Source: an uncultured bacterium (lineage in GTDB: Bacteria > Patescibacteriota > Minisyncoccia > UBA6257 > 2-01-FULL-56-20). From it: 64,000 bases of DNA. Below the pieces are notes generated by a model. It ran no database searches. It was not told the origin of the DNA and saw only the letters and a program-made list of their open reading frames with translations. The stretch spans positions 366,942-430,941 of the forward strand of contig OY970354.1 of the NCBI GenBank assembly GCA_963718515.1, in the 5' to 3' direction. Below are positions 1,608 to 18,936 of this stretch, one piece after another (the stretch's first letter is position 1; the number at the start of each line of letters is the position of its first letter). The position numbers and the translations under genes were made by a program.

Positions 1608-2639
1608 ATGGCAAACGTGCGCGTCGCGATCAACGGGTTTGGCAGGATCGGCCGGTTGTTCTTCCGCCAGGCATTCGGGCTCCCTAATATAGAGATTGTC
1701 GCATTGAACGACCTCGGCGACGTGGAGAATCTCGCATATCTATTAAAGTACGACACGGTGTACGGCCGTTTTGATAAAGAAATAAAAACGGATGCCGCGA
1801 ACGGCAAGTTGATCGTCGATGGGAAGGAGATCAATTTCTTGCAAGTGAAGGATCCGACCCAACTTCCTTGGAAAGCCATGAATATCGATCTCGTTATCGA
1901 GTCGACAGGGCTCTTTGATGAATACGCAAAATCAAAAGTGCATTTGGCGGCGGGCGCAAAGCGCGTTGTGATCACGGCGCCCGCAAAGGATGCCGACGGT
2001 GCGGATGGCCAGACAGTGCTGATGGGGGTGAACGAAGATAATTTAAAGTTGTCGACGATCACGTCGAATGGTTCATGCACCACAAACTCCGCATCGCCGG
2101 TCATCCAGATCTTGAGCGAGAATCCGGGCATCATAAAAGCGTCGCTTTCGACCGTGCACGCATACACGGCGACGCAGGCGCTTGTAGATGGCCCGATCCG
2201 CGGCGGCCACGATTTCCGCAAGGGCCGAGCGGCGGCGATGAACACCGTTCCCGAAACGACCGGCGCCGCGATCAGTGTCGCGCGCGCGATCCCGTCGCTC
2301 GCGGGAAAGTTCGACGGGCTTTCATTCCGCGTGCCGAATATCACCGGTTCCATCTCTGACATCACATTCCTCGCCAAGCGCGCGACGACCGTGGAAGAGA
2401 TCGCGCAGATTTTGACCGACGCGGCGAACTCACCGCGCTGGCAGGGGATACTGCAAGTGACGCGCGATCAGATCGTTTCATCCGACATCATTGGGCAAAA
2501 AGTAGGCGCGACCGTCCCGCTTGATCTCATTAAGGTAATCGACGGCGATCTCGTGAAAGTGCTCTCGTGGTACGACAACGAAGCGGGGTACGTATCGACC
2601 CTGATAAAACACGTTGAAAAGGTAGCAGAACTTCTTTAA
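1608..2639 (+). CDS. gapA: glyceraldehyde-3-phosphate dehydrogenase (type I)
   Basis: 343 aa. NGFGRIGR Rossmann motif and catalytic SCTTN motif. Full-length GAPDH. Confidence 0.95.
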   Translation: MANVRVAINGFGRIGRLFFRQAFGLPNIEIVALNDLGDVENLAYLLKYDTVYGRFDKEIKTDAANGKLIVDGKEINFLQVKDPTQLPWKAMNIDLVIESTGLFDEYAKSKVHLAAGAKRVVITAPAKDADGADGQTVLMGVNEDNLKLSTITSNGSCTTNSASPVIQILSENPGIIKASLSTVHAYTATQALVDGPIRGGHDFRKGRAAAMNTVPETTGAAISVARAIPSLAGKFDGLSFRVPNITGSISDITFLAKRATTVEEIAQILTDAANSPRWQGILQVTRDQIVSSDIIGQKVGATVPLDLIKVIDGDLVKVLSWYDNEAGYVSTLIKHVEKVAELL

Positions 2640-2665
2640 ATAAGTCATTAGGTTAAGAGTAAAGG

Positions 2666-2690
2666 CCTCGCTTGCGCGGGGTCTTTTTTT
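2666..2690 (+). terminator. rho-independent terminator after gapA
   Basis: GC-rich hairpin cctcgcttgcgcgggg followed by a T7 run. Confidence 0.5.
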
Positions 2691-2890
2691 GATTTCCCGT
2701 TCTCGTCTCAAAGGTCGGCAAATTAAAAACGCCCTTATTGAGATGCAAAAGGAAAGAAAACGTTTTTCCCGTTGGGAGATTTGCGTACGGTGTGAGCGCC
2801 GGTGTCGCAAGATCTACCATTTCGGTCGGGAAATGGAATCTACTGCGATCCTTTGCAGAGCATGCTCGCGGGCATTAGAACCAAAAAATC

Positions 2891-3193
2891 ATGGAAGGAT
2901 TTATTCCTCTCGCCGAAGTGGCGAGCGCGGCTACGCGATCCGTCGAGCTGCGGCGGCTCACTGATCGACAGACACGCGTATATCAAGCGTTTGTGGAGGA
3001 GATCGGTAATATTCGCGTGCCGAGGATCGTTGAACTCCTCCAAATAGCCAATAAGCTGAAAATCAGCTATAAAGCCGCCCGGTGTGCCAAAAATACTCTC
3101 GTCAAAAAAGGATTTTTGAAGCAATGGACAACTACCTTTCGGGATAAGGATGGCCTTTTCCGCAAGAGTACCTATTACCGGATCGAGTTTTAG
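2891..3193 (+). CDS. winged-helix/HTH DNA-binding protein (regulator or excisionase-like)
   Basis: 100-aa ORF with HTH-like segment LLQIANKLKISYKAARCAKNTLVKKGFL. Followed by a strong terminator and a long palindrome. Confidence 0.45.
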   Translation: MEGFIPLAEVASAATRSVELRRLTDRQTRVYQAFVEEIGNIRVPRIVELLQIANKLKISYKAARCAKNTLVKKGFLKQWTTTFRDKDGLFRKSTYYRIEF

Positions 3194-3206
3194 GGAATCA
3201 TGAAAA

Positions 3207-3241
3207 ATCCGCCGGACTGAAAACCCGGCGGTTTTTCTTTT
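3207..3241 (+). terminator. rho-independent terminator
   Basis: tccgccgg…ccggcgg hairpin followed by tttttcttttt. Confidence 0.7.
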
Positions 3242-3250
3242 TCTTAGATA

Positions 3251-3296
3251 GGGGCAAATCTATTAATTAATTTCTTAATTAATTAAGATTTGCCCC
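3251..3296. repeat. 46-bp near-perfect palindrome (GGGGCAAATC…TTAATTAATT…GATTTGCCCC)
   Basis: Perfect 10-bp outer inverted arms flanking a TTAATTAA-rich core. Candidate operator, origin or recombination site. Confidence 0.6.
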
Positions 3297-3380
3297 CTCC
3301 GTGTTTTTTCTTAGGTTTCTCCGTCATTTCTGTTGTTTCGCTTATATGTATATTTGCCCTTTTTCGATTTCATTTCAAAT

Positions 3381-3427
3381 GCCAAAGTGTTGATAACTTT
3401 TATTTCGGCAGTTATCCACACTTTGGC
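3381..3427. repeat. 17-bp inverted repeat (gccaaagtgttgataac / gttatccacactttggc) with 13-bp spacer
   Basis: One mismatch between arms. The left arm is repeated directly at 16182..16199. Confidence 0.6.
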
Positions 3428-3631
3428 CCCGCGGAAACTTTTTCGCTGTTGTAGAAAAATATAAACATGGTCATCTGCTCAATCTGTTCTCATAGCGAGT
3501 GGTGCGACGGCGGCGATCGGTGTGATTGCCAATGCCACGACGTCGATCTCGAAGATGATGGATTCTACGAGGAAGACTACGACGATGAGGGCGAAGGAAT
3601 TGACGGCAACGAAGGGGATTAATAAACAACC

Positions 3632-3781
3632 ATGAACCCAATACTCATACTTCTCGGTTTCATTGCTTTGTATATCAGCGCTTCCCGGCTTGCTTCCGTA
3701 AGGCGGCCGCCGCAGATGGGATTCATCATGCCGAAGAAGACCCTGTGGCAAAGGATAAAAAGAATCTGGCGCAACCGATGA
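3632..3781 (+). CDS. small hydrophobic peptide (49 aa), putative membrane protein
   Basis: ATG-initiated short ORF MNPILILLGFIALYIS…, co-directional with the downstream cluster. Overlaps minus-strand ORF 3479..3751, so uncertain. Confidence 0.25.
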   Translation: MNPILILLGFIALYISASRLASVRRPPQMGFIMPKKTLWQRIKRIWRNR

Positions 3782-3902
3782 ACTGGGATATTTTCAAAGG
3801 ATTCTGGCTGGGTGTTATCTCACTTCTATTCGTCGAATTTTCAATCGTATGGTCCGTGGATGAAACCAAAGGTAACGACGATAACGATACATTAAAACCA
3901 AC

Positions 3903-4058
3903 ATGACATTTCAAGATTTCATCGGCACGATCATTTTCGCTTTTATGTTCAACTTCTGCATCACGGTCATGCTCGATGGATTGCTCGGATTGTTTTACCG
4001 GCAGATCGGGGCCAAATACATTAAAGTCGTGATGAAAAATGACGGATTGAATTATTAA
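3903..4058 (+). CDS. small hydrophobic peptide (51 aa)
   Basis: MTFQDFIGTIIFAFMFNFCITVMLDGLLGLF…, a TM-like peptide. Overlaps minus-strand ORF 3726..4061. Confidence 0.25.
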   Translation: MTFQDFIGTIIFAFMFNFCITVMLDGLLGLFYRQIGAKYIKVVMKNDGLNY

Positions 4059-4059
4059 C

Positions 4060-4185
4060 ATGACGCCCCTCGATACAATTTTCTACCAGTGGTCAGAAGT
4101 GATCAATCCCTCATGGATTCTCGTGCTGTTCGCCCTTACCACGTTGCACACCTTCCTATTTACCTTCATCGAAAATTGGCTCTAA
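4060..4185 (+). CDS. small hydrophobic peptide (41 aa)
   Basis: MTPLDTIFYQWSEVINPSWILVLFALTTLHTFLF… with a predicted TM segment. Confidence 0.25.
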   Translation: MTPLDTIFYQWSEVINPSWILVLFALTTLHTFLFTFIENWL

Positions 4186-4295
4186 AGATAACATAAAGAT
4201 TCGATAAAGAAGTTATAAAGAAAAGTTAAATAAATTTTAAAGATGTTATTCCGGAAAAATAAAGGTCGAATAAATATTAACCAAACACCACAACC

Positions 4296-4565
4296 ATGGT
4301 CAAAAAGATTTCTCTTTGGCTTTCGGGCGCTGGCGCTGCGATCGTTGGCCTCATTGGGGCTGCGGCCGCTCACGCGCAGTCCATCCCGGCAGGCGCTTTG
4401 GCGGTCCCCACCTCTACGGTTCAGGATCTCCTAGCGTCGGTCAGTAACGTGTTCACCGATCCGGGTATTCTCGGCATGGTGATTATCGCTGCTGCACTGC
4501 CGATCGTCTTCTGGTTCGCTCGCCAAGTCATTGGCTTGCTGCCGAAGTCGCGCGCAGCCCGCTAG
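4296..4565 (+). CDS. small secreted protein with C-terminal TM anchor (pilin-like topology)
   Basis: 89 aa. Signal peptide ending AHAQ and C-terminal hydrophobic segment. C-terminal module DLLASVSNVFTDPGIL…FWFARQVIGLL is shared with 4851..5462. Confidence 0.5.
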   Translation: MVKKISLWLSGAGAAIVGLIGAAAAHAQSIPAGALAVPTSTVQDLLASVSNVFTDPGILGMVIIAAALPIVFWFARQVIGLLPKSRAAR

Positions 4566-4623
4566 CATCTCACCCCATCTCACGGGCGAGGGGATGTCGT
4601 GAGAACGTCCCTTCACCCGTGAT

Positions 4624-4854
4624 ATGAAAAAGAAAATTATCACAATTTCGTTTGTTGCCTTGATTCTGATCGCCGCGGAATTTTGGTGGGCCGTGTTGAC
4701 GTTGCCTTGGCCACTAGTCGTCGCCATATATGCGTACATGGCTCATGTCCTCGTTTTGGGGTTCTTGGAAATCGCAGTGGTTGCCCTTGTTATTCCGCTC
4801 GTATTTTATCTCGTCCACGGGATCATCAATCTCGTCCGCTCAAAAAAGAAATGA
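4624..4854 (+). CDS. small integral membrane protein (2 TM)
   Basis: 76 aa, very hydrophobic. Its stop overlaps the next start codon (ATGA). Confidence 0.45.
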   Translation: MKKKIITISFVALILIAAEFWWAVLTLPWPLVVAIYAYMAHVLVLGFLEIAVVALVIPLVFYLVHGIINLVRSKKK

Positions 4855-5462
4855 AGAAAATTATATACACAATTTTATTACTCCTTCCCATTCTGCTTTC
4901 TGCGGCACCAGCTTTTGCTGCCTTATCAACAACCCCCGCCAGTTCGGATAATTTAAACTCATTGCAGATTACCGTTACCGGCAATGATAATCGCCGCGTC
5001 ATTCTCGTTGACTATGCAGGCATCATCGTGGGCGATACGGATCAAAGCCACGGCTATCCTTACCCCGATACCGACGGAACATACAGCCCTTCGCAATTAG
5101 GCTTTACGTCAAGTGGTTATGGAACCTACACAATTATCAGTACAGTTCAATCCGAAAATGGACATGGCAGCTGCACACCGGGTAATACCATCGTGAGCTG
5201 TATCGGCATGATTAATTACGGAAGCGGCTATTACAACGAAAGCACGTTTAATCTTTTTGCTCCTCCGGCACCGGTAACAATCAATTCGGGCGTGCTTGTG
5301 TTGCCGTCATCTGATACCCACGATCTTTTGGCAAGCATCACGAATGTGATGGACGGTGCAGGACTGCTTGAGATCCTTGTTCTCGCAGCAGGAGTGCCAT
5401 TAGCCTTTTGGTTTATGAGAGAGATCATCGCCTTAAACTACCAGAATAAAAAACAAAAATGA
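4851..5462 (+). CDS. secreted protein with conserved pilin-like C-terminal module
   Basis: ATG at 4851 gives signal peptide MKKIIYTILLLLPILLSAAPAFA. C-terminal DLLASITNVMDGAGLLEILVLAAGVPLAFWFMREIIAL is paralogous to 4296..4565. Confidence 0.5.
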   Translation: MKKIIYTILLLLPILLSAAPAFAALSTTPASSDNLNSLQITVTGNDNRRVILVDYAGIIVGDTDQSHGYPYPDTDGTYSPSQLGFTSSGYGTYTIISTVQSENGHGSCTPGNTIVSCIGMINYGSGYYNESTFNLFAPPAPVTINSGVLVLPSSDTHDLLASITNVMDGAGLLEILVLAAGVPLAFWFMREIIALNYQNKKQK

Positions 5463-5701
5463 AAAAGATTTTTATAACCATTTCAATATTGGGTATCACC
5501 GCATTCATGCCCCTTTTGGCGTTCGCGCAGGTTGCTACAGACAGCATTCAGCTGCCGTCCGATTTCACCGCTGATGTTTTGACGCAATCAACTGCTTTAC
5601 TAACCAATCTCGAAGGCTACATGAGCCTCATCGTGGGCGTACTTCTTGCGCTCGTCGTCGTTGAATTTGTGATCGGCGCAATCAGACATCGCGGGCAATA
5701 A
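5459..5701 (+). CDS. small secreted protein with C-terminal TM anchor (paralog family)
   Basis: 80 aa with signal peptide and C-terminal TM. ATGA overlap with the upstream gene. Confidence 0.5.
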   Translation: MKKIFITISILGITAFMPLLAFAQVATDSIQLPSDFTADVLTQSTALLTNLEGYMSLIVGVLLALVVVEFVIGAIRHRGQ

Positions 5702-5709
5702 CATGAGCC

Positions 5710-7038
5710 ATGAAAAAATATATTCTCATAGCGTTAATGGTAGTGGCGGGATCGCTTGTACTCTCCTCGCACTCTGCCTTTGCGTTCAGTCTTGAAGAAC
5801 CCCAAAGCTTCGTCCAACCGGATACGATATTTCTCGATCAGAATGGCAATTTAGAAATTCAGTGGCAAAAAATTCAATTAGGGTTCGGGGGATATGATCT
5901 GCCGGGCGGTATCATGGTTTCGATCAATGGGACAAGCACTGATCCGGAATTGAGCTACAACGGCCCGTATGCCGGATGGTCGGCGGGCGGCCATGTGCTT
6001 ACGCATGGCGGCGTCGGCACCGGTGGACCGTGCGCGCCCGGATTCGGAGGGAATTACAGCACTGCAAGCGAAGCGCCTTATGGCAACACCTACGGGCCAA
6101 TAAGCACGGTATGGAACGCGGATACCAATTCTTTTGTGAGCACGGTAGGCATGACGGAAGCCACGCCGATTTATCTCACGTTTTTTAACTACAACGGATA
6201 TACGTGCGGCATCAGCGAATCAGAACCAACCGACGGCAGCACCTACTGGCAGGTATTTTATTTAAATTCCGTTGAAGAACCCGTACAGCCGGAATTTTTG
6301 CAACCATTCGACGGCGCAGTGATTGGCCAATTCCCAAACTGGGATTTTTATTTATCAAACAACTCCACAAGTTCACAAAGTGGCGTCGTAACTGTCCACT
6401 TCGGCACCGGTCCCGGCAATCTTACACTCACCGCTTCGACGACTTATACCGATCTTCCCGCGGGAACCGATACCGAACTCACGATTCCCGAAACATATCA
6501 ATTCACCACCCCGCAGGGGCCGAGTTCAAGCATATGGTATGCCGACATTGAAGTGGCGAACACCTCAACCGATTTTGATATTACGGGATCAGTCATCAGT
6601 TTCACCTTCGAGAATAATGCGCCTACCGTCGCGCCATTTCCAAATGGCATGTTTAATTTCGAGGGAGGGGAAACATCATCCACGGCATCCGATTGCGATT
6701 ACACGACTTCAAGTTTTCTCGATGATCCGGTTGGCAATCTCGAAGAAGCGGGATGCAACATGTTTATCCCGAATTCTTCGGAGCAGGCAGATCTCTACGA
6801 TTCATTTCACGGCACATGGGGCAACCTCTCGACAAAGATTCCCTTTGGCTACGCTGCGATCATCACAACAGCATTCACTAATTTTCAAGAGGGAACGAAC
6901 GCCAGCACGCTGATGAGCACGACGACCTACGCTGCGCTTTCATCGGTGCTTGATCCATTAAAGACTGGCGTATCATTTTTACTTATTCTCATGCTGGGAT
7001 TTTGGATTTTCAAATTTATTCAGCACATAACGCTATGA
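5710..7038 (+). CDS. large secreted protein with C-terminal TM anchor
   Basis: 442 aa. Signal peptide ...SHSAFA, S/T/G/N-rich body and C-terminal hydrophobic helix. Confidence 0.55.
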   Translation: MKKYILIALMVVAGSLVLSSHSAFAFSLEEPQSFVQPDTIFLDQNGNLEIQWQKIQLGFGGYDLPGGIMVSINGTSTDPELSYNGPYAGWSAGGHVLTHGGVGTGGPCAPGFGGNYSTASEAPYGNTYGPISTVWNADTNSFVSTVGMTEATPIYLTFFNYNGYTCGISESEPTDGSTYWQVFYLNSVEEPVQPEFLQPFDGAVIGQFPNWDFYLSNNSTSSQSGVVTVHFGTGPGNLTLTASTTYTDLPAGTDTELTIPETYQFTTPQGPSSSIWYADIEVANTSTDFDITGSVISFTFENNAPTVAPFPNGMFNFEGGETSSTASDCDYTTSSFLDDPVGNLEEAGCNMFIPNSSEQADLYDSFHGTWGNLSTKIPFGYAAIITTAFTNFQEGTNASTLMSTTTYAALSSVLDPLKTGVSFLLILMLGFWIFKFIQHITL

Positions 7039-7298
7039 TCGTCTATTGGATATTAAAAATATTTGTATACCTCTTGAGCCTCATCACGGCGCCGCTCTTG
7101 TTATTGCCTACAGCATCCTTGTCGGTGGATCTCACCGGCACGCTCACCCAAGCGGGCAATTATCTGGCGCTATTCGACATATTTTTGCCCGTAGGAACGC
7201 TTTTAACGGTCTTTGGCATCATTGTCTCGATCGAGGGAGGATATTTCAGCTACAAGGTCGTAAAGTGGATCTATAACAAGATACCGGGAGTAACCTAA
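7035..7298 (+). CDS. small integral membrane protein
   Basis: ATG at 7035 overlaps the upstream stop (ATGA). Three predicted TM helices. Confidence 0.4.
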   Translation: MIVYWILKIFVYLLSLITAPLLLLPTASLSVDLTGTLTQAGNYLALFDIFLPVGTLLTVFGIIVSIEGGYFSYKVVKWIYNKIPGVT

Positions 7299-7343: not shown

Positions 7344-8183
7344 ATGGCGAATGAACTAACACCTTCGAGCCCGCACAAGGACTTTGAGAGCATTAAGAAA
7401 ATTGACGAAAACGGGATTGAGTATTGGGAAGCTCGTGAATTAATGCCGGTTTTGGGTTATGAAAACTGGCAAAAAGCAGAGGAGGTTATTGCTAGGGCTG
7501 CCAAAGCCTGTATTAACAGCGGTCAGGATGTGGATAACCATTTTAACCAGACGGTTAAAATGGTGAATATTGGCTCAAACACAGTAAGAGAAGTAAGAAA
7601 TTATAAGCTCGATAGGTACGCTTGTTACCTTATCGCTCAAAACGGCGATCCGAAAAAACACGAAATAGCGACGGCTCAAACATACTTTGCAATTCAGACG
7701 CGACGGCAGGAGATTTTTGAACAATTGTCAGATAGCGAAAAAAGACTATTTATCCGTGGCGAAGTATCTGATCGCAACAAAAAACTTTTTAAGACAGCGC
7801 GACGAGCTGGAGTCAGTAAATTTGGTTTGTTTAACGACGCAGGCTATAAAGGTCTTTATGGTGTACCCTTAGCAGATGTTGAAAAAAAGAAAGGGATAAA
7901 AAAGGGAGAGCTACTTGATCATGCTGGCGCAACGGAGCTTGCTGCTAACTTGTTTCGTATAACACAAACCGATGAGAAAATAGCTAAGGATAAAATATAT
8001 GGGCAAGAAGCGGCTTCGAGAGCTCACTTCATGGTGGGCGGTAAAGTTAGACAAACCATTAAAGACATTGGTGGTGTTCTGCCGGAGGAATTGTCTACTG
8101 AAAAAAGTATCAAAGAAGTAAAAAAGGAAATTAAGCTTCTCAAAAAAGAGGAAAATAAAAAGATTAAGGGATTTAAAAAATAA
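7344..8183 (+). CDS. dinD: DNA-damage-inducible protein D-like (Bro-N domain) protein
   Basis: N-terminal 120 aa align with E. coli DinD/Bro-N family (…ENGIEYWEARELMPVLGYENWQKAEEVI…YACYLIAQNGDPKK…AQTYFAIQTRRQE). Lysine-rich C-terminus. Confidence 0.7.
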   Translation: MANELTPSSPHKDFESIKKIDENGIEYWEARELMPVLGYENWQKAEEVIARAAKACINSGQDVDNHFNQTVKMVNIGSNTVREVRNYKLDRYACYLIAQNGDPKKHEIATAQTYFAIQTRRQEIFEQLSDSEKRLFIRGEVSDRNKKLFKTARRAGVSKFGLFNDAGYKGLYGVPLADVEKKKGIKKGELLDHAGATELAANLFRITQTDEKIAKDKIYGQEAASRAHFMVGGKVRQTIKDIGGVLPEELSTEKSIKEVKKEIKLLKKEENKKIKGFKK

Positions 8184-10224: not shown

Positions 10225-10231
10225 TAAACCC

Positions 10232-10426: not shown

Positions 10427-10431
10427 CTTTA

Positions 10432-12297: not shown

Positions 12298-12308
12298 AAG
12301 CTAAAAAT

Positions 12309-12782
12309 ATGTTCTGCTCTAGCTGTGGATCAAAATTAGAAGATGGCACGAAATTTTGTGGTACTTGTGGCGCCCCGGCCGGTAAAAAAATAGCTATAGA
12401 ATCGGCAGTAGCGCCCACTCACTCCATGACATCTTTAAAGGTACTATCAATCATAGGAATTATCTTCGCGGTAATTTGTTTTCTTTGTGCGGCCGGGCTT
12501 ATTAATAGCGATGCCGTCGCTGCGGCTGGCTGGGGAATTTATGGTGAGGTTTATCTCTTAGCACTTTCGATTGTGGCTTTGGTTAAATCAGGCTCACAGC
12601 GTACGAAAGCTTTACGGGCGTTATCAATCATAGGAATTATTGTTGCTGCGCTTTGTTTCTTTTTTGAGGTTATTTTGCTAAGTAGCAATAGTAACTTTGA
12701 TGCGGCTGGCTGGGGCTTTTATACCTATATTTATTTATTAATTTTCTCTATCGTCGCCTTAGTTAAATCAGGTAAAAAATAA
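12309..12782 (+). CDS. zinc-ribbon membrane protein with internal duplication
   Basis: MFCSSCG…CGTCG ribbon followed by two copies of a ~50-aa two-TM unit (ALSIIGII…IVALVKSG). Confidence 0.55.
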   Translation: MFCSSCGSKLEDGTKFCGTCGAPAGKKIAIESAVAPTHSMTSLKVLSIIGIIFAVICFLCAAGLINSDAVAAAGWGIYGEVYLLALSIVALVKSGSQRTKALRALSIIGIIVAALCFFFEVILLSSNSNFDAAGWGFYTYIYLLIFSIVALVKSGKK

Positions 12783-12819
12783 AGATGCAGATTTCGATCT
12801 AGCCTCGCCGCTTTCAATA

Positions 12820-13299
12820 ATGAATAACGAGATCAATTTTAGTAGACAGCTTATTAAGGGGAAAATCGTTGAGATGATTTTCGAGATGATGATGCGCGAG
12901 ATGGATCGTGTTACTGTTTTGCGAGCCGGATATGAATATACCCATCCGGAATTGGCGCAATATCAGCAGCTCCTACAAGATAAGGGCCGCGAAGTACTTA
13001 AATTTTTTGAGCACAACCCTGATTTTATTTTATTCAAAAAGGATAAAACGCAGCTCTATCTCGTTGAAGTTAAATATCGGCACTATCTTGATCCCGAAAA
13101 AATCAGAGAGATAGCTGAGGAAAAATTAGAACGCTCGGAACACATTTGGCTTTTTCTTGCGACGCCCGATGGCTTCTTTTTTTCTCAATGCAAGGATATT
13201 GCTCAAATGGGTGCTATCCAGCCCCTCTCTCCCAATTGGGTTTCCGAAGAAGTCCAGAGGAATTATCTTACGCTCCTGAAAGAATTTATAAAGCAGTAG
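12820..13299 (+). CDS. hypothetical protein with PD-(D/E)xK-like motif
   Basis: 159 aa. …HNPDFILFKKDKTQLYLVEVKYR fits a PD…ExK nuclease core. This is inference only. Confidence 0.4.
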   Translation: MNNEINFSRQLIKGKIVEMIFEMMMREMDRVTVLRAGYEYTHPELAQYQQLLQDKGREVLKFFEHNPDFILFKKDKTQLYLVEVKYRHYLDPEKIREIAEEKLERSEHIWLFLATPDGFFFSQCKDIAQMGAIQPLSPNWVSEEVQRNYLTLLKEFIKQ

Positions 13300-13308
13300 C
13301 GTTTTCTT

Positions 13309-13533
13309 TTATTCGCTGAGTTGTTCCAACTGATATAACACTCTTGCTTCGATCTGTGCGATCCTCGTACCGCTGATCCCAAAATGCGCGCCACATTCTT
13401 TTAGGGTATGCGGTTTCCCGTCGGTAAGGCCGTGCTTGTATTCAAAGACTTCAAAATAGCGAGGGTGTAGCCCTAACGAAGGCTTAGTCGCCAGATATTT
13501 CTTGTTTATCTCGCTCTGGACTTCCTTTTGCAT
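13309..13533 (-). CDS. sigma-70 region-4-like HTH protein
   Basis: 74 aa. …LTDGKPHTLKECGAHFGISGTRIAQIEARVLYQLEQ resembles sigma-70 region 4.2. Confidence 0.5.
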   Translation of the reverse strand: MQKEVQSEINKKYLATKPSLGLHPRYFEVFEYKHGLTDGKPHTLKECGAHFGISGTRIAQIEARVLYQLEQLSE

Positions 13534-13609
13534 TCTGATATGCTATATTCTATCACATCAGCCCGTTTTGGCTAAACTAGCCAGTTTCGGCTCATGGAGA
13601 CCCACCTAA

Positions 13610-14488
13610 ATGCCTACCCCAACCAAGAAATATCCCTTTACCTTCCAAGAGTTACCGCTTCAAAAGGTTGAGCAAGATCCGGATCAACCGAGAAAGAACT
13701 TCGGCACCGATGACGATGAAAATCGTCTTCTTTTATCCATCCAAGAGTACGGCATACAGCAACCTTTGGTGGTTAGTGAAGTTGAAGACGGTAGATACAT
13801 TATCCTCGATGGCCACCGGCGTTATATTTGCGCTCAAAAGTTAGAGCTTGATGTCGTGCCGTGCCGGGTATACCCCAAGCTTCCAGTGGGCCAGTTTGAG
13901 ACGTTGCGCTATGAGATTCAGAATAATCGCCGTCCGTGGAAACCGCTTGAGCGCGCCGAGGCATTAAAAACCATAAAAGAAGCAATGCGTTTTGAGAATA
14001 ATAAACAACTCGCGGAGCATATTCATATGAGCGAGGCATCCGTCTCGAATTCCATTCAGCTCGCCAAAGAGAAAAGTACCTTTTTGGAGATGATGGCGAG
14101 TTACGGTTTATCAGAAGCGTATCAAGTGGAGTTTATTCATCTCAAGGCGAAATTGAGAAGGATAAAAAAACTTGAGGTGGTGGATATTACTAAGTTGCTT
14201 TTTCAGAAGGTGCAGGATAAGGTGATCCGCAGCGCAAAAGACTTTCGGAAGTTCGGAAAGATTTTCTCTCGCGCAACGGCTAACGAGGAGCAGATTTATA
14301 AATTTCTTACTGATCCTGATATGACAGTGAACGAGCTAAGCCAGCGGACCGTGCAGTCGGGGCGATCGCTTCTTATCGAGCAGTTGATCCGAGAGATAGC
14401 GAACACTCGACAGAAAGGCGTATCGTTCAGCACTCAAGAAAAAACTTCGTTGAAGCATTTATCCGAGCTTCTTGAGAAGGTCCTTTAA
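13610..14488 (+). CDS. ParB/Spo0J-family (ParB N-terminal nuclease-like domain) protein
   Basis: Q.D..QPR..F box and ILDGHRRY (GxRR) motif of the ParB N-terminal domain. No adjacent ParA. Confidence 0.65.
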   Translation: MPTPTKKYPFTFQELPLQKVEQDPDQPRKNFGTDDDENRLLLSIQEYGIQQPLVVSEVEDGRYIILDGHRRYICAQKLELDVVPCRVYPKLPVGQFETLRYEIQNNRRPWKPLERAEALKTIKEAMRFENNKQLAEHIHMSEASVSNSIQLAKEKSTFLEMMASYGLSEAYQVEFIHLKAKLRRIKKLEVVDITKLLFQKVQDKVIRSAKDFRKFGKIFSRATANEEQIYKFLTDPDMTVNELSQRTVQSGRSLLIEQLIREIANTRQKGVSFSTQEKTSLKHLSELLEKVL

Positions 14489-14493
14489 TCCCG

Positions 14494-15840
14494 ATGCTCT
14501 CCATCTCATCGCCAGCGAAGAAAAAAGGTATCGCTTACTATCGTCATTCGGCCGAAGATAAGCAGGAGAATTCGGTTCCGATCCAAAGACAGCATACCCA
14601 AAAATTGACTGGTGAGAATAATGTTGAGCTTCTTCACGAGGAAGCTGATGAAGGCAAGTCGGGACTTCTCGCTGCTCGACCGGGATTCGAGAGGCTTTTT
14701 AAGGATTGGATCTTGAACCCTGATGCCCCATATTTTGAGTATGTATTTGTCTATGACGTTTCCCGGTGGGGTAGATTTCAAGATCCTGATGAGGCGGGAT
14801 ATTATGAGTTTCTTTGTAAACAAAAAGGTAAGAAAGTTATTTATGTTTCGCGGGGGTTTCCAAAAGAAGAACAACCCCAGCTCATTTCTCATCTTCAAAC
14901 ATCCATTGAGCGCTATATGGCGGCGGAGTACAGTCGGCAGTTGAGCGACAAGGTGTTTTATGGATGCGTGAAAGTTTCGGAGCAGGGATATTCGGCCGGT
15001 GGTACTTCGTGCTATGGGATGACGCGCCTTCTTTTGGATGCCAATAAGAAACCGATCAAAGCGCTCAAGCGTGGGGAATGGAAATCATTATCGAACGAAC
15101 GCGTTACGTTCGCACCGGCAAATGATGAAACCACGGAAGCGGTAAAAGAAATGTTTGTCCTGCTCGTGAAGAAATGGCGATCGCCGAAAGAGATCGCAGA
15201 AATTTTAAATGAGAGGCAGATTCCATCGGCGACTGGTGGATTATGGAATAGCCAAAAAGTAATTCATGTGCTTACGAATGAGACCTATACCGGCTCGCGC
15301 ATTTATAACAAGACATGGGGGCGCTTGAAGCAAAAGATGCGGCAAAATCCTCGGAATGAATGGGTGATCAAACCGAACGCCTTTGATGCCATTGTCGAGA
15401 GCGATGTTTTCCGCGAAGCGCAGGAACATTTATATTGGCTTCTCGATTCAAAATGGAAGCGGGGGATCTATGCGACTAATCGCGTGAGAAAGTTAATCCG
15501 CGAGGATCTCCGCGGCATACTCTCGAAACGAGGTATCGCATATGATGACATCGAAGAAACATTGAATAAAATCCCGATCGTTTTTGGTGTTCGTTTTTAT
15601 CACAATTCAATTCCTCATTGGTGCTTCTTGATTGAAGAAACGGCTCGCAACTATGATTTTGTCATTGGAGTAAGTGTCGCTATGGATCAGCGAGAACCAA
15701 TCGACAGATTTTTTCTTATTCCGACGAACGATTTTAATGGCGTAAACTTTAACGTTTTTTCCGAAACGGATGATTGCTATGGGAAATATAAAATAGAGGA
15801 AAGTAAGGTTGAAGAAAAAGTGCTTTCGTTTATTGCCTAA
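14494..15840 (+). CDS. large serine recombinase
   Basis: N-terminal resolvase motif YYRHSAEDKQENSVPIQRQ…FVYDVSRWGR plus recombinase domain (…LWNSQKVIHVLTNETYTGSRIYNK). Confidence 0.8.
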   Translation: MLSISSPAKKKGIAYYRHSAEDKQENSVPIQRQHTQKLTGENNVELLHEEADEGKSGLLAARPGFERLFKDWILNPDAPYFEYVFVYDVSRWGRFQDPDEAGYYEFLCKQKGKKVIYVSRGFPKEEQPQLISHLQTSIERYMAAEYSRQLSDKVFYGCVKVSEQGYSAGGTSCYGMTRLLLDANKKPIKALKRGEWKSLSNERVTFAPANDETTEAVKEMFVLLVKKWRSPKEIAEILNERQIPSATGGLWNSQKVIHVLTNETYTGSRIYNKTWGRLKQKMRQNPRNEWVIKPNAFDAIVESDVFREAQEHLYWLLDSKWKRGIYATNRVRKLIREDLRGILSKRGIAYDDIEETLNKIPIVFGVRFYHNSIPHWCFLIEETARNYDFVIGVSVAMDQREPIDRFFLIPTNDFNGVNFNVFSETDDCYGKYKIEESKVEEKVLSFIA

Positions 15841-16126
15841 TTTTAACGCCTTTCACGCTGAACCAGAAAAAGGCATAGAGGACTGTCAACAGGATAATCA
15901 CAAGAAATACAGAGATCACGATCTCGCCGTAAGTGAAGCCATTATAATAGCTATTATCGGTCGAAGTGCTTTCTCCGTAGAGAGTAAGGCATGTTGAGCT
16001 ACCGAATTGGAAGGTCCCGCTATCCGTAGAAGTAGCGGGATTTAAATTTCCTCCGGTCAACACCATCGGATTGCTATAGCTGCATGTCGTGGTTGCGTTG
16101 GTCATTTTTATATTAGTGGCGTCCAA
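15830..16126 (-). CDS. small secreted/membrane protein
   Basis: 98 aa, T/S-rich with a C-terminal TM helix. Confidence 0.3.
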   Translation of the reverse strand: MDATNIKMTNATTTCSYSNPMVLTGGNLNPATSTDSGTFQFGSSTCLTLYGESTSTDNSYYNGFTYGEIVISVFLVIILLTVLYAFFWFSVKGVKIRQ

Positions 16127-16181
16127 CCGTCTGACGGTCCCACGCCTTCATTTTAACTCCCGTAGTCAAGGTCGATCAAAA

Positions 16182-16199
16182 GCCAAAGTGTTGATAACT
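16182..16199. repeat. 18-bp direct repeat copy (gccaaagtgttgataact) of the site at 3381
   Basis: Exact 18/18 match to 3381..3398. No inverted partner here. Confidence 0.7.
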
Positions 16200-16262
16200 C
16201 AAAATAATTCAAGAACGACAATTTAAAAATAAGGGTGGGTAGGGGATAGGGTAAATTGCTAT

Positions 16263-16291
16263 TTGACATATAAAATAAGGTATGGTACAAT
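16263..16291 (+). promoter_or_regulatory. sigma-70-like promoter candidate (TTGACA-17-TACAAT) upstream of integrase
   Basis: Consensus -35 TTGACA, 17-nt spacer, -10 TACAAT. A perfect 7-bp hairpin gcccacc…ggtgggc follows at ~16425..16448 before the integrase start. Confidence 0.45.
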
Positions 16292-16443
16292 CTAAAGGTC
16301 AAAAATTAATAACTTCCCATTGTCCCGCAAGGGTCGGCCGAAAGGCTTAATTCAACCAATGGGCTTCGTAAATCGCTTAAATTGATTTATTATTTAAGCG
16401 GTGCTGCCGAAAGGTAGTACCAGCACGAGCCCACCGAGTTGAA

Positions 16444-17532
16444 TTGGTGGGCTTTGTGTTTATGAAATTAAGCGAAGCAATCAAAAATTTTATTTCGTTA
16501 AGAGAGGCGAAAGGACCACGCGCACGAAAAACCGCCGCGCGGTATTTAACCGTGCTCCGCCCTTTCTGCCTGTGTATGCAAGATCCGGAAGTTGAAGATC
16601 TCGACATCGAGCATGTGCTTTGGTACCTGAATGAGATGGAACGATTGGGATGGAAACCAAACGGAAGAAATCTCGCAGCGCTCGGATTAAGAAAATTTTT
16701 CGAGTACTGCAACCTGCGTGGCTATCCGGTTTTTAACGAGCAGCTCATTCCGGTGCCGGAGCGTGCGACGAATATCCCGCGGGTGGCAGATGAGCAATCA
16801 TTTGAAAAAATTATTGAGCAACTTCCCGCAGATTCAAACAGGCCGAACCATATTCGTAACCGGGCGCTCGTGATGCTCTTGTGGGATACTGGCGCACGTA
16901 ATGGTGAACTATGTTCTTTGAACACAGCTGATTTGCAATTTAGTAAAGACAATTCAGGATCGGCTATCATCAAAACCGAAAAGTCTCGTGGTCGTCGGCC
17001 GATTCGACAAATTTTCTGGACACCGAAAACCGGTAAGGCGTTAAAGTTGTGGATCAAAAAGAAAGCTGAATTAGAAAAGCAATTTACGTTTGCTGATCCA
17101 GAAGCATTGTTTGTAACCATTCTCAAATGTCCGCAAGCTCCTTTGCGTGGTCGCCGGATGGTGAACACGAGTGTTTGCGAAGTGATGCGTGTTTTGTCTA
17201 ATCAAGCCGGATTGGCGACCGTGATCAATGCGCACGGCGCTCGACATGCAATGGGCCGCGACGCAGCAAAGGCATTACGAAGCGATACAGCCGTTGCAAA
17301 TATTCTTGGCCACTCAAACGTTGAGAGCTCGTACATTTATACGATGCTTTGGGGTGATGATCTGAAAGAGGAATGGCAAGAGGTTATGAAAAAACGCGGA
17401 GTGCCAATGGGTCGCCCGCCGGATACCTCATCGAGTTTTCCTAAACCTCGTCAATCACGATCGGACACGTTGCCGGGCAGATTGCGACCGCACCCAGTCG
17501 CTACATCTCGGCATGGCAGGATTATGAAATAA
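16444..17532 (+). CDS. int: tyrosine recombinase / phage integrase
   Basis: Conserved R…HxxR…Y motifs (…WDTGARNGELCSL…, HGARHAMG, LGHSNVESSYIYT). True start may be the ATG at 16462 (MKLSEAIK…). Confidence 0.85.
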   Translation: MVGFVFMKLSEAIKNFISLREAKGPRARKTAARYLTVLRPFCLCMQDPEVEDLDIEHVLWYLNEMERLGWKPNGRNLAALGLRKFFEYCNLRGYPVFNEQLIPVPERATNIPRVADEQSFEKIIEQLPADSNRPNHIRNRALVMLLWDTGARNGELCSLNTADLQFSKDNSGSAIIKTEKSRGRRPIRQIFWTPKTGKALKLWIKKKAELEKQFTFADPEALFVTILKCPQAPLRGRRMVNTSVCEVMRVLSNQAGLATVINAHGARHAMGRDAAKALRSDTAVANILGHSNVESSYIYTMLWGDDLKEEWQEVMKKRGVPMGRPPDTSSSFPKPRQSRSDTLPGRLRPHPVATSRHGRIMK

Positions 17533-17690
17533 CAGAATTTTTATATTGTGCATAAAATAACCGCGTTTTTTGCCGGGCGTGTTATAGTTGTATGGACGAG
17601 CAAGAAGGCACTTGCTCTTAATAATAATGACTAAATTTAATGAGGCAGGAAAGGTCGCAAGGGCTACTTTTCTCACCTGCTACAACAACG

Positions 17691-17749
17691 AATTGGGGTA
17701 TGTGTCGACGCTCATCAAGCACGTGGAAAAAGTTGCGGAGCTTTTGTAA
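17691..17749 (+). pseudogene. duplicated 3'-terminal fragment of gapA (att-site remnant)
   Basis: Encodes …CYNNELGYVSTLIKHVEKVAELL*, matching the GapA C-terminus. About 75% nt identity to 2581..2639 with differences mostly at codon third positions. Confidence 0.6.
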
Positions 17750-17786
17750 CGGCGTGGCGCGCAATTTTTAACGAGGATATTTTATT

Positions 17787-18930: not shown

Positions 18931-18936
18931 AAATTA

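What the first reader, a model, noticed from the sequence alone, without database searches (positions are those of the whole stretch)
2580..17750. ~15-kb integrative element inserted into the 3' end of gapA, carrying a replacement gapA terminus
The last ~20 codons of gapA (…WYDNEAGYVSTLIKHVEKVAELL*) recur at 17691..17749 as …CYNNELGYVSTLIKHVEKVAELL*. The second copy lies just downstream of a tyrosine integrase (16444..17532) and upstream of rpiB.

The two copies are about 75% identical at nucleotide level. The differences sit at codon third positions, as expected when an element supplies its own attP-encoded gene end. The intervening 15 kb holds a serine recombinase, a ParB-like protein, a DinD/Bro-N protein, an IS256 element and many small secreted proteins. 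It interrupts an otherwise contiguous glycolysis/pentose-phosphate operon (gapA | rpiB-rpe-tkt).

Integration into a protein-coding glycolytic gene rather than a tRNA is unusual. The ParB homologue hints at a plasmid-like extrachromosomal stage.
Basis: partly seen in the sequence, partly recalled or inferred. Interest (0 to 1): 0.8.

Follow-up and report, generated by a model that had tools for sequence, protein, structure and literature searches.

The report
Mobile element inserted in gapA's end
A 15.1-kb mobile DNA element has inserted into the last codons of the glycolysis gene gapA in a tiny (CPR/Patescibacteria) bacterium and brings its own copy of the gene's end, so the enzyme stays intact. 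This is a well-known insertion strategy, seen here with a target gene I found no report of.

Summary

**The repeat.** A 78-nt direct repeat (59/78 identical) lies at 2562-2639, the end of intact gapA, and at 17672-17749, an orphan tail. The orphan tail sits 140 nt after a tyrosine integrase gene and 37 nt before rpiB. The repeat brackets 15,110 bp of low-GC DNA (0.46 against 0.55).

**The junctions.** Three comparisons place the crossover in GGGGTAYGT (2585-2593 / 17695-17703):
- In the first 8 repeat codons, 4 differences change the amino acid. In the last 17 codons, all 13 differences are synonymous.
- L047, a relative in another host, matches the right junction.
- L049, a relative in another host, matches the left junction.

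The element therefore supplies gapA's last ~15 codons, the stop and a terminator. The native end is displaced next to rpiB.

**Relatives.** A relative without the element has gapA 18 nt from rpiB. Integrase relatives (54-97% identical) are almost always followed by an orphan gapA tail, so gapA is the family's target.

**Element type.** No capsid, conjugation, replication or P-loop NTPase gene was found. I call it an integrative island of unknown transfer mode. Its backbone recurs after rplK in other genomes. The plasmid-stage idea is not supported.

**Verdict.** A new member of a known kind, of moderate interest.

The parts
1608..2639 (+). Intact gapA (GAPDH, 343 aa). Codons 1 to about 328 are native. 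About the last 15 codons plus the stop come from the element.
   Evidence: Pfam Gp_dh_N and Gp_dh_C. Same length and C-terminus as close homologues. Against L049 the body 1608-2584 is 80.7% identical in nt, but 2591-2639 is 95.9%.
2562..2639 (+). attL copy of the 78-nt direct repeat.
   Evidence: D1. Significance.
2585..2593 (+). Inferred crossover (overlap) region at attL: GGGGTACGT.
   Evidence: Switch from amino-acid-changing to purely synonymous differences. Left junction against L049. Right junction against L047.
2594..2693 (+). Element-supplied (P') gapA end, the stop at 2637-2639, and a terminator-like hairpin at 2661-2686 with a T run.
   Evidence: 96-98% identical to L049 while the host gene body is 81%. 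Terminator scan. The last 7 codons use element-like codons.
2710..2717 (+). AAAGGTCG motif in the P' arm, repeated in the P arm at 17650-17657. Possible accessory or arm-type site.
   Evidence: AAAGGTCG recurs in the arms of L039 and L050, and as AAAGGTC in L047.
2891..3193 (+). 100-aa winged-helix DNA-binding protein, the first element gene after attL. Regulator; possibly a directionality factor.
   Evidence: 34 homologues. AlphaFold model pLDDT 81.6. Generic winged-helix hits in PDB. Always the first gene of the backbone.
3381..3427 (.). Inverted repeat of an 18-nt motif: GCCAAAGTGTTGATAACT, 11 nt, then its reverse complement with one mismatch (AGTTATCCACACTTTGGC). Operator-like.
   Evidence: Same palindrome, with the same single mismatch, in L049.
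3467..7298 (+). Conserved backbone module of small membrane or secreted proteins: 3467-3622, 3745-3906, 3903-4058, 4296-4565, 4624-4854, 4851-5462, 5459-5701, the 442-aa protein at 5710-7038, and 7002-7298.
   Evidence: translations show signal peptides and C-terminal hydrophobic anchors. No significant Pfam or PHROG family. Conserved in L049 and L050/L051.
7344..8183 (+). Cargo: Bro-N/DinD-like protein, matching PADLOC candidate defence protein PDC-S13.
   Evidence: Pfam Bro-N. PADLOC PDC-S13, E 3e-105. The slot holds other genes in L049 and L050.
8288..9388 (+). Mutator/IS256-family transposase gene, part of the shared backbone.
   Evidence: Pfam Transposase_mut, E 2e-88. 98.6% identical in protein at the same position in L049. 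Single copy in the window.
9532..12782 (+). Four zinc-ribbon membrane proteins, including a 621-aa trypsin-like protease with Cys-rich repeats (10432-12297).
   Evidence: Pfam. Repeated N-terminal zinc-ribbon coding segment (D4).
12820..13533 (.). 159-aa protein (+ strand; weak TnsA-like hit below the curated cutoff) and a 74-aa sigma-70 region-4-like HTH protein (- strand, 13309-13533).
13610..15840 (+). Gene pair: ParB-like protein (13610-14488) and large serine recombinase (14494-15840).
   Evidence: Pfam and PHROGs. The same adjacent pair occurs in IMG/VR contig L048 at 40% and 49% identity.
15830..16126 (-). 98-aa membrane protein that travels with the integrase module.
   Evidence: Conserved next to int in L047 (97%), L039 (87%), L021 (71%) and L050/L051 (84%).
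16182..16291 (+). A third copy of the 18-nt motif (16182-16199), then the best sigma-70-like promoter match in the region (16263-16291, TTGACA-17-TACAAT), upstream of int.
   Evidence: The motif is identical in L047.
16444..17532 (+). Tyrosine integrase. The likely start is ATG at 16462, giving 356 aa. It has two domains like Xer recombinases, and no arm-binding domain was detected.
   Evidence: Pfam Phage_integrase. Catalytic R152, K180, H264, R267, H290 and Y299 are invariant in 32 homologues. 495 relatives.
17533..17694 (+). P arm of the attachment site. It holds an extended -10-like motif TGTTATAGT (17580-17588), AAAGGTCG (17650-17657) and a non-coding imitation of gapA codons (17672-17694, reading LTCYNNEL).
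   Evidence: 36-nt perfect match with L047 ending at 17703. Corrupted WYDNE motif. Promoter motif enrichment.
17695..17703 (+). Inferred crossover (overlap) region at attR: GGGGTATGT.
17704..17749 (+). Displaced native 3' end of gapA (...STLIKHVEKVAELL plus stop), now an orphan.
   Evidence: Host-like codon usage, +5.6 bits over codons 9-18 of the repeat. Diverges from L047 at host-like levels, 77.6%. Followed by host rpiB.
17787..21398 (+). Host genes downstream of the insertion: rpiB, rpe, the transketolase N-terminal half, a membrane protein, and the transketolase C-terminal half.
   Evidence: and Pfam. Same order in relatives L002-L011 and L038.

Best explanation
Window 2591-17700 (junctions known to within a few bases) is a 15.1-kb integrative element. 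Its own tyrosine integrase (16462-17532) inserted it by site-specific recombination into the 3' end of gapA in a CPR/Patescibacteria bacterium.

**The attachment site.** The element's attP carries three parts:
- On the integrase side (P arm), about 23 nt that imitate the gapA codons for L-S-W-Y-D-N-E-A. They need not code, and here they read LTCYNNEL.
- A short crossover region, GGGGTAYGT.
- On the other side (P'), a synonymous copy of the last ~15 gapA codons, the stop and a terminator.

**The product of recombination with the chromosome.**
- attL is native gapA joined to the element-encoded end. The protein is unchanged.
- attR is the P arm joined to the displaced native end, followed by rpiB.

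**Shown:** the repeat, the two junctions, the absence of the element in relatives, the same integrase lineage and backbone at the same site in other hosts, and the family-wide pairing of this integrase with gapA tails.

**Inferred:**
- the exact cut positions;
- that the integrase is still active;
- that an outward promoter-like motif in the P arm keeps rpiB-rpe-tkt expressed after gapA transcription ends at the element's terminator;
- that the mosaic gapA ends in relatives are scars of element loss by homologous recombination between attL and attR.

**Transfer.** How the element moves between cells is unknown. It has no capsid, conjugation, replication or NTPase genes that I could detect.
For: **Repeat, composition and gene identities**
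- Repeat and its significance.
- Low GC of the insert.
- Integrase with an intact catalytic set.

**Relatives without the element**
- L002-L011 have gapA, then 0.4-2 kb of variable genes, then rpiB-rpe-tkt, with no integrase.
- L038 has gapA 18 nt from rpiB.

**Crossover position**
- In repeat codons 1-8, 4 differences change the amino acid. In codons 9-25 all 13 differences are synonymous.
- 118 of 120 close GAPDHs read WYDNEA. The right copy reads CYNNEL.

**Right junction (L047, integrase 96-97% identical in protein)**
- The integrase region is 89-92% identical in nt to the window. Host rpiB and rpe are 69%.
- The two sequences are identical for 36 nt ending at 17703. Identity then falls to 78% in the tail and 16% in the spacer.

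**Left junction (L049, GAPDH 89% identical in protein)**
- The gapA body is 80.7% identical in nt, 2591-2639 is 95.9% and 2640-2890 is 97.6%.
- The last host-type mismatch is at 2567.

**Family level**
- 18 of the 25 integrase relatives fetched (54-84% identical) carry an orphan GAPDH tail 150 nt to 3 kb downstream on the same strand, usually within 600 nt. The other 7 have less than 300 nt downstream or no detectable tail.
- The WYDNE codons are often corrupted in these tails, while EMGY...HV is kept.

**Gene-end repair kit**
- Terminator-like hairpin at 2661-2686.
- Extended -10-like motif in 14 of 21 P arms, against 2.6% background.

**Mobility of the backbone**
- The same gene order follows rplK in L050-L055.
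Against: - No excised circle, empty site or attP junction from the same population was seen. The only other contig of this strain (L001) is identical and also carries the element.
- The perfect identity between attL and attR is only 6 nt (GGGGTA), with a C/T difference right after it. The overlap is therefore inferred, not read off.
- Two relatives have gapA ends that do not fit a single clean crossover:
  - L037 looks native for 30 nt and then element-like.
  - L002 looks element-like for 29 nt and then native.
  - I explain these as recombination scars or mosaic attP, which is an added assumption.
- No recognisable excisionase was found.
- The element has no identifiable means of transfer, so it may be immobile now.
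Confidence: 0.88

Rival explanations
1. Same element, but the crossover lies about 30 nt further downstream, near CACGT/GAAAA (2612-2622). The element would then supply only the last 7 codons, and the whole upstream 55 nt of the right copy would be an attP imitation of gapA.
For: - L037 (GAPDH 97% identical in protein) becomes 45/46 identical to the window's left copy only from 2619 onward.
- L002 matches the left copy up to CACGT and the right copy after it.
Against: - L049 shares the left copy's 2591-2617 perfectly, although its gapA body is only 81% identical. The chance of that is about 0.003 if this stretch were host DNA.
- All differences in this stretch are synonymous, which would not be expected of a non-coding arm.
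- L047 and the window diverge right after GGGGTATGT.
Confidence: 0.05
2. The large serine recombinase (14494-15840), not the tyrosine integrase, inserted the element. The tyrosine recombinase would be a passenger or a resolvase.
For: - A large serine recombinase of the phage-integrase type is present: PHROG 95, E 1.5e-40.
- It is paired with a ParB-like gene, as in an IMG/VR contig.
Against: - The gapA tail follows the tyrosine integrase in relatives that lack this serine recombinase.
- L047 keeps int and attR but has a Fic gene where the serine recombinase sits in the window.
- From my own knowledge, serine integrases leave only 2-12 nt repeats and do not need a long imitation of the target.
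Confidence: 0.03
3. The segment is an old, vertically inherited and now immobile island. The repeat is a relic, and the similarity to L047 and L049 reflects common descent and not transfer.
For: - No circular form or empty site was seen in the same strain.
- No transfer genes were found.
Against: - Element DNA is far more similar between hosts than host DNA is: 89-98% against 69-81%. This includes non-coding stretches at 92-98%, against a 16% host spacer.
- The closest hosts lack the element.
- The backbone also sits at rplK in other genomes.
Confidence: 0.05
4. The element is a virus-like agent or satellite of an undescribed kind, not a plain island. The conserved run of small membrane proteins plus a 442-aa anchored secreted protein would be a particle or transfer module. 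This reading is compatible with the integration mechanism above.
For: - The module is conserved at 69-95% protein identity across elements that differ in cargo and even in target gene.
- Several of its proteins have a signal peptide, a short mature part, a membrane helix and a basic tail, like small coat proteins (my reading).
- One integrase relative lies on an IMG/VR viral contig with tail-fibre-like hits.
Against: - The module has no PHROG or Pfam structural hit.
- No morphogenesis or packaging NTPase is present.
- No relative of the 442-aa protein was found in IMG/VR.
- No replication initiator was found.
Confidence: 0.15

Closest known systems
Tyrosine-integrase ICEs and islands inserted in the 3' end of housekeeping protein genes (streptococcal elements in rplL, rpsI, lysS, rpmG, guaA; PMC4701971)
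   Same: - Site-specific tyrosine integrase at one end of the element.
- Direct repeats that contain the 3' end of a conserved essential gene.
- The gene product is unchanged.
- Integrases group by target gene.
   Different: - The target is gapA.
- The host is a CPR bacterium.
- No conjugation module (no relaxase, coupling protein or VirB4-type ATPase) was found.
- The repeat is 78 nt and diverged (76%), whereas that paper reports repeats of 12-54 bp.
Phage 21 and the e14 element in icd of Escherichia coli (from my own knowledge; not checked in the paper library)
   Same: - Integration inside the 3' part of a central-metabolism gene.
- The element carries a diverged but functionally equivalent copy of the gene end.
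- The chromosome keeps a displaced native end.
- Replaced gene ends leave traces in population sequence data.
   Different: - Those are a lambdoid phage and a defective prophage with recognisable phage genes. This element has none.
- The integrase family and the target gene differ.
ICESt1/ICESt3 in fda of Streptococcus thermophilus (from my own knowledge)
   Same: Integration into the 3' end of a glycolytic gene by a tyrosine integrase.
   Different: Those elements are conjugative. This one shows no conjugation genes.
Islands and prophages in the 3' halves of tRNA and tmRNA genes
   Same: Same logic: a conserved target, attP carrying the gene's 3' part, and serial or tandem use of one site. 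Double tails are seen in L033 and L035.
   Different: - The target is a protein-coding gene. The replacement only has to be synonymous, so the two copies drift apart at third codon positions.

Membership tests
Site-specific integrative element using a tyrosine integrase, with restoration of the target gene's 3' end | Tyrosine recombinase gene with a complete catalytic set at one end of the insert | tested here: met
   Pfam PF00589, E 5e-20. R152, K180, H264, R267, H290 and Y299 are invariant across 32 homologues. The gene ends 140 nt before the right repeat.
Site-specific integrative element using a tyrosine integrase, with restoration of the target gene's 3' end | Flanking direct repeats (attL, attR) that contain the 3' end of the target gene | tested here: met
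   78-nt repeat, 59/78 identical, corrected chance about 2e-12.
Site-specific integrative element using a tyrosine integrase, with restoration of the target gene's 3' end | The target gene stays intact and its product is unchanged | tested here: met
   343-aa GAPDH with the same C-terminus as close homologues. All 13 differences in the replaced part are synonymous.
Site-specific integrative element using a tyrosine integrase, with restoration of the target gene's 3' end | Related genomes without the insert at the same locus | tested here: met
   L002-L011 and L038. No empty site was found for the same strain.
Site-specific integrative element using a tyrosine integrase, with restoration of the target gene's 3' end | The same integrase lineage sits at the same target in other hosts, with element DNA more similar than host DNA | tested here: met
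   L047, L049, L039 and L022. 18 of the 25 integrase relatives fetched carry a gapA tail.
Site-specific integrative element using a tyrosine integrase, with restoration of the target gene's 3' end | Excision to a circle with attP, leaving a restored attB | not testable with these tools
   No raw reads were available. No attP-type contig was found among the fetched loci or in IMG/VR.
Lambda-type (heterobivalent) integrases | N-terminal arm-binding domain and arm-type sites in attP | tested here: inconclusive
   - Pfam finds only the catalytic domain.
- Some homologues carry the SAM-like core-binding domain PF02899.
- The protein starts directly with that region, and no arm-binding domain was detected.
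- The repeated AAAGGTCG motif in both arms is only a candidate site.
Integrative and conjugative element (ICE) | Relaxase, coupling protein and a type IV secretion ATPase | tested here: not met
   No such Pfam or PHROG hit in the ORFs scanned. No Walker-A motif in any ORF of 80 aa or more.
Prophage | Capsid, portal, terminase or tail genes | tested here: not met
   PHROG scans of 20 element proteins gave only ParB, integrase, sigma-factor-like, protease-like and unknown-function families. No NTPase.
Plasmid-like replicon with ParABS partition | Replication initiator, ParA ATPase, ParB and parS | tested here: not met
   Only a ParB-like N-terminal and HTH protein is present. No ParA or other P-loop protein. 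No Rep family hit. A parS site was not identified.
IS256 family insertion sequence | Mutator-type transposase flanked by terminal inverted repeats and an 8-9 bp target duplication | tested here: inconclusive
   - The transposase is clear: PF00872, E 2e-88.
- An ungapped search found no terminal repeats. By eye I could align only gapped, imperfect ones, at about 8224-8252 and 9412-9439. I found no target duplication.
- The gene is conserved in place in L049.

The most novel reading that the evidence does not exclude
The window's element may belong to an undescribed family of small mobile elements specific to CPR bacteria.

**What defines the family**
- A conserved backbone: a winged-helix regulator, about eight small membrane proteins, a 442-aa anchored secreted protein, an IS256-type transposase and a 98-aa membrane protein next to the integrase.
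- This backbone could encode a new, NTPase-free way of leaving and entering cells, virus-like or vesicle-like.

**What the family would do**
- Swap its integration module between conserved gene ends (gapA here, rplK elsewhere).
- Carry anti-phage defence cargo.
- Rewrite the 3' end of a core glycolytic gene across lineages through repeated gain and loss. It would leave mosaic gapA ends, including a D-to-N change in the WYDNE motif of an intact GAPDH.
Probability: 0.15. Interest if true: 0.7.

Novelty: new member of a known kind. Interest (0 to 1): 0.42.

Why it matters
- **A worked example for CPR bacteria.** Mobile elements of CPR/Patescibacteria are poorly described, and these organisms have small genomes with few obvious landing sites. 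This locus is mapped to within a few bases. It includes a whole integrase family that uses the conserved WYDNE-GY coding stretch of gapA as its address, in CPR genomes and apparently in Bacteroidota genomes too.
- **A complete repair kit.** The element appears to bring a synonymous gene end, a terminator and, apparently, an outward promoter for the downstream pentose-phosphate genes.
- **Practical uses.** The integrase with its gapA-type attB could serve as a site-specific integration tool for organisms that lack genetics. The mosaic gapA ends in relatives warn that the 3' end of this common marker gene can carry mobile-element history instead of organismal history.
- **Not a new principle.** Insertion into the 3' end of a housekeeping gene with restoration of that end is textbook.

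Tried and rejected
1. **Crossover near CACGT.** I favoured this for a while because of L002 and L037. I dropped it after the codon analysis and the junction comparisons with L047 and L049.
2. **Searches of IMG/VR for a free or viral form.**
   - The integrase as a single query found nothing.
   - The integrase alignment found one close relative, which is the same contig as L028, plus distant ones.
   - The 442-aa protein found nothing.
   - The serine recombinase found one contig carrying the ParB and recombinase pair but no clear phage genes.
3. **PHROG, Pfam and PADLOC scans of the small backbone proteins.** No informative hits.
4. **Ends of the IS256-type gene.** An ungapped search found no clean terminal repeats, and I saw no target duplication.
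5. **Fold of the first element gene.** It is a generic winged helix. The hits do not separate a regulator from an excisionase or a replication protein.
6. **Literature.** Full-text searches for gapA as an attachment site, and for integrative elements of Patescibacteria, found nothing relevant. The library is incomplete, so this is weak evidence of novelty.
7. **A second element with both ends.** Not achieved.
8. **Exact-match look-up of the window's GAPDH.** It returned nothing, although a 100% identical cluster exists.

Full report
**1. The observation**

The window holds an intact 343-aa GAPDH gene at 1608-2639 (Pfam Gp_dh_N and Gp_dh_C). The repeat finder gives as its top direct repeat 2562-2639 against 17672-17749: 78 nt, 76% identical, spacing 15,110 nt. 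With the local base composition, 59/78 matches has a chance of about 1e-20. That is about 2e-12 after allowing for every pair of positions in the region.

tblastn of the GAPDH against the whole window finds the gene itself and only residues 319-343 at 17672-17746. The second copy is therefore an orphan tail and not part of a paralogue. It lies 140 nt after a tyrosine integrase gene (16444-17532, Pfam PF00589) and 37 nt before rpiB (17787-18245).

Between the repeats GC is 0.456, against 0.546 in the rest of the window.
- large serine recombinase, 14494-15840
- ParB-like protein, 13610-14488
- Bro-N protein, 7344-8183
- Mutator/IS256-type transposase, 8288-9388

**2. Host and empty sites**

The closest GAPDHs (up to 97% identical) come from metagenomic CPR/Patescibacteria bins. 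Source names include Minisyncoccia and various Candidatus bacteria.

Contigs carrying GAPDHs 90-94% identical show gapA, then 0.4-2 kb of variable genes, then rpiB-rpe-tktN-x-tktC-pfkB. None has an integrase or a 15-kb insert (L002-L011). L038, with GAPDH 85% identical, has gapA and rpiB only 18 nt apart. So the 15 kb is an insertion into a conserved gene order.

The only other contig of the same strain (L001, 3 mismatches in 11.9 kb) also carries the element. I have no empty site for this exact strain.

**3. Where the crossover is**

*Within the window.* The first 8 codons of the repeat differ by four amino-acid changes: S/T, W/C, D/N and A/L. The last 17 codons differ at 13 positions, all synonymous. 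118 of 120 close GAPDHs read WYDNEA, while the right copy reads CYNNEL. The first part of the right copy is therefore not, and never was, working gapA sequence. The remainder of both copies has been kept in frame for the same peptide.

*Right junction.* L047 carries an integrase 96-97% identical in protein in a different host.

| Region (window coordinates) | Identity to L047 (nt) |
|---|---|
| p98m, intergenic and integrase region | 89-92% |
| rpiB, rpe (host) | 69% |
| 36 nt ending at 17703 (...CTTTCTCACCTGCTACAACAACGAATTGGGGTATGT) | 100% |
| gapA tail after 17703 | 78% |
| spacer before rpiB | 16% |

*Left junction.* L049 carries a related element after a GAPDH 89% identical in protein.

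| Region (window coordinates) | Identity to L049 (nt) |
|---|---|
| gapA body, 1608-2584 | 80.7% |
| 2591-2639 | 95.9% |
| 2640-2890 | 97.6% |

The last host-type mismatch is at 2567, and 2568-2617 is identical.

*Conclusion.* Together these place the exchange inside GGGGTAYGT (2585-2593 / 17695-17703). The perfectly shared core is GGGGTA. The next base is C in both attL sites and in all native relatives, and T in both attR sites. That fits an overlap region that includes this base.

Codon usage agrees. The right copy's codons 9-18 look host-like (+5.6 bits). The left copy's last 7 codons look element-like (-3.3 bits).

An earlier idea placed the exchange near CACGT at 2612-2617. It rested on L002 and L037. 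The L049 comparison contradicts it, and it is kept only as a weak rival.

**4. What each side carries**

attL is native gapA up to about codon 328, followed by element DNA. That DNA holds about 15 synonymous codons, the stop, and a terminator-like hairpin with a T run at 2661-2693. The hairpin is the same in L049 apart from one fewer T in the following T run.

attR is the element's P arm joined to the displaced native end and rpiB. The P arm carries a degenerate extended -10-like motif (TGTTATAGT, 17580-17588) that points toward rpiB. Motifs of this type occur in 14 of 21 P arms of the family, against 2.6% of random windows of the same size from the same loci.

In L038 gapA and rpiB are 18 nt apart and most likely co-transcribed. 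I therefore infer that the element ends gapA transcription with its own terminator and restarts transcription of rpiB-rpe-tkt from its own promoter. This is an inference from sequence motifs only.

**5. The integrase family targets gapA**

The integrase has 495 relatives at E <= 1e-10. Its catalytic residues R152, K180, H264, R267, H290 and Y299 are invariant in an alignment of 32.

I fetched 25 loci with relatives 54-84% identical from genome and metagenome collections. 18 of them carry an orphan GAPDH C-terminal tail on the same strand, 150 nt to 3 kb downstream of the integrase and usually within 600 nt. The other 7 have less than 300 nt of downstream sequence or no detectable tail. Two loci have two tails, which suggests serial use of the site.

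In an alignment of 19 such sites:
- GAAATGGGGTA is almost invariant, including third codon positions.
- The following codons (TSTLVEHV) vary in a codon-like pattern.
- The preceding WYDNE codons are often corrupted: WYRNE, WYYKE, WYRHE, WCNHE, WCSNE and CYNNE.

This is what an element-borne arm plus core, followed by host gene ends, should look like.

Several loci come from bins titled Bacteroidia or Flavobacteriales. Their flanks encode proteins with the type IX secretion sorting domain. The family therefore seems to reach beyond CPR. Bin labels are not fully reliable, though: L018 is titled Saccharibacteria yet has the same Bacteroidota-type genes. One relative lies on a 36.6-kb IMG/VR contig with weak tail-fibre-like hits.

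**6. Traces in gapA of relatives**

L038's intact GAPDH reads SWYNNEM. Its DNA in this stretch resembles the P arm of these elements more than it resembles native gapA. P0052 reads WYDNEL. L002 has 29 nt identical to the element-supplied end, followed by a native-type end. L037 has a native-type stretch, followed by 45/46 identity to the element-supplied end and 18 nt beyond the stop. After that it diverges and the contig ends.

The simplest account has three parts:
- Elements are sometimes lost by homologous recombination between the diverged attL and attR.
- That leaves hybrid gene ends in the chromosome.
- The reciprocal circles carry hybrid attP sites to new hosts.

This is inference and has not been shown.

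**7. What kind of element**

I scanned 20 element proteins against PHROGs, and the main ones against Pfam and PADLOC. The hits were:
- the two recombinases and ParB
- a sigma-70 region-4-like HTH protein
- zinc-ribbon proteins and a trypsin-like protease
- the Bro-N/DinD-like protein, which matches the PADLOC candidate defence protein PDC-S13 (E 3e-105)
- a few families of unknown function

There was no capsid, portal, terminase, tail, relaxase, coupling protein or replication initiator. No ORF of 80 aa or more contains a Walker-A motif. So there is no ParA, and the ParB-like gene is poor evidence for a plasmid stage. ParB and the serine recombinase also occur as an adjacent pair in an IMG/VR contig, so they may work together.

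The first gene after attL (2891-3193) folds as a generic winged helix (pLDDT 81.6). It could be a regulator or a directionality factor.

An 18-nt motif, GCCAAAGTGTTGATAACT, forms an inverted repeat just after that gene (3381-3427). It recurs upstream of the integrase promoter-like site (16182-16199). The copies at the matching positions in L049 and L047 are the same as the window's, although the surrounding DNA is only about 90% identical.

**8. A modular family**

L049 shares the left backbone with the window:
- the winged-helix gene and the small membrane proteins
- the 442-aa protein (95% identical)
- the 98-aa protein at 7002-7298
- the transposase (98.6%, at the same position)
- the zinc-ribbon genes

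L049 has HigB, an M78 peptidase, a Beta_protein and a P4 cII-like gene where the window has PDC-S13.

Six further contigs (L050, L051, L052, L053, L054, L055) hold the winged-helix gene directly after rplK (ribosomal protein L11) instead of gapA. Three are long enough to show the rest of the backbone:
- L050 and L051 have the 442-aa protein at 82% and the 98-aa integrase-adjacent protein at 84%.
- L054 has the same gene order.

Restriction-modification and AAA_15 genes are the cargo in L050 and L051.

So the backbone is the mobile unit. The cargo slot and the integration target are exchangeable. The transposase is part of the backbone and is not a recent insertion.

**9. Comparison with what is known**

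The design matches the classic one used by islands, ICEs and prophages that insert into the 3' ends of tRNA genes and housekeeping protein genes. For streptococcal ICEs the targets rplL, rpsI, lysS, rpmG and guaA are documented, with direct repeats of 12-54 bp, and the integrases group by target (PMC4701971). From my own knowledge, phage 21 and e14 in icd, and ICESt1/ICESt3 in fda, are the closest parallels for central-metabolism genes.

Full-text searches found no report of gapA as an attachment site, nor of this element family in Patescibacteria. The library is incomplete.

**10. Verdict**

The details differ in five ways:
- The repeat is an arm-plus-core-plus-gene-end hybrid.
- The replaced part is about 15 codons.
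- The strategy is not unusual.
- The plasmid hint is weak.
- The transposase is part of the backbone.

It is a new member of a known kind, with gapA as a probably undescribed target and an integrase family dedicated to it. The side question of how an element without any NTPase moves between cells remains open. Interest is moderate.

Noticed in passing
window 7344-8183: The Bro-N/DinD-like protein matches the PADLOC candidate defence family PDC-S13 (E 3e-105). It sits in a slot that holds toxin-antitoxin-like or restriction-modification genes in related elements (L049, L050, L051), so this looks like a defence-cargo hotspot.
   Followed up: partly
window 3381-3427 and 16182-16199; L049 10492-10538; L047 1750-1767: The 18-nt motif GCCAAAGTGTTGATAACT occurs as an inverted repeat after the winged-helix gene and as a single copy upstream of the integrase promoter-like site. 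The related elements carry the same copies unchanged. It could be an operator or a ParB-binding site.
   Followed up: partly
L050 1696-2708, L051, L052, L053, L054 9300-10312, L055: The same element backbone (winged-helix gene, small membrane proteins, 441/442-aa protein) lies directly after rplK (ribosomal protein L11) instead of gapA. The right ends and integrases of these elements were out of reach.
   Followed up: partly
L038 10001-11032 (protein P0105); also P0052: An apparently intact GAPDH next to rpiB reads SWYNNEM, with D replaced by N in the near-universal WYDNE motif. The DNA there resembles the element's attP arm. P0052 reads WYDNEL. Both may be scars of element loss.
   Followed up: partly
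L033 6383-6842; L035 9730-11753: Two orphan gapA tails follow one integrase gene. The outer tails are more decayed. This suggests tandem or serial integrations at the same site.
   Followed up: no
L017 11718-15019: In this Flavobacteriales-labelled locus, the genes after the gapA tail look like mobile-element genes: a phage replication protein O-like gene, a D12 methyltransferase and an Eco57I-like methylase. This may be a tandem array.
   Followed up: no
L018 6263-9645: The contig is titled Candidatus Saccharibacteria but encodes proteins with a type IX secretion sorting domain and an OmpA-family protein. It is probably a Bacteroidota contig that was mis-binned.
   Followed up: no
window 13610-15840; L048 7128-9317: The ParB-like gene and the large serine recombinase form a conserved adjacent pair, also present in an IMG/VR contig (40% and 49% identity). 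Their joint role is unknown.
   Followed up: partly
window 10377-10408, 10472-10503, 12340-12371 (also 9532-10224): Four neighbouring genes each have an N-terminal zinc-ribbon. In three of them (10232-10426, 10432-12297, 12309-12782) the DNA encoding it recurs as a short repeat. The 157-aa protein (12309-12782) also has an internal duplication of about 180 nt.
   Followed up: no
window 18937-21398: Transketolase is split into N- and C-terminal genes, with a 179-aa membrane-protein gene (19846-20385) between them. The same arrangement occurs in all the relatives examined.
   Followed up: no
window 2591-17700: No ORF of 80 aa or more in the whole element contains a Walker-A (P-loop) motif. That is unusual for a 15-kb mobile element.
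   Followed up: yes
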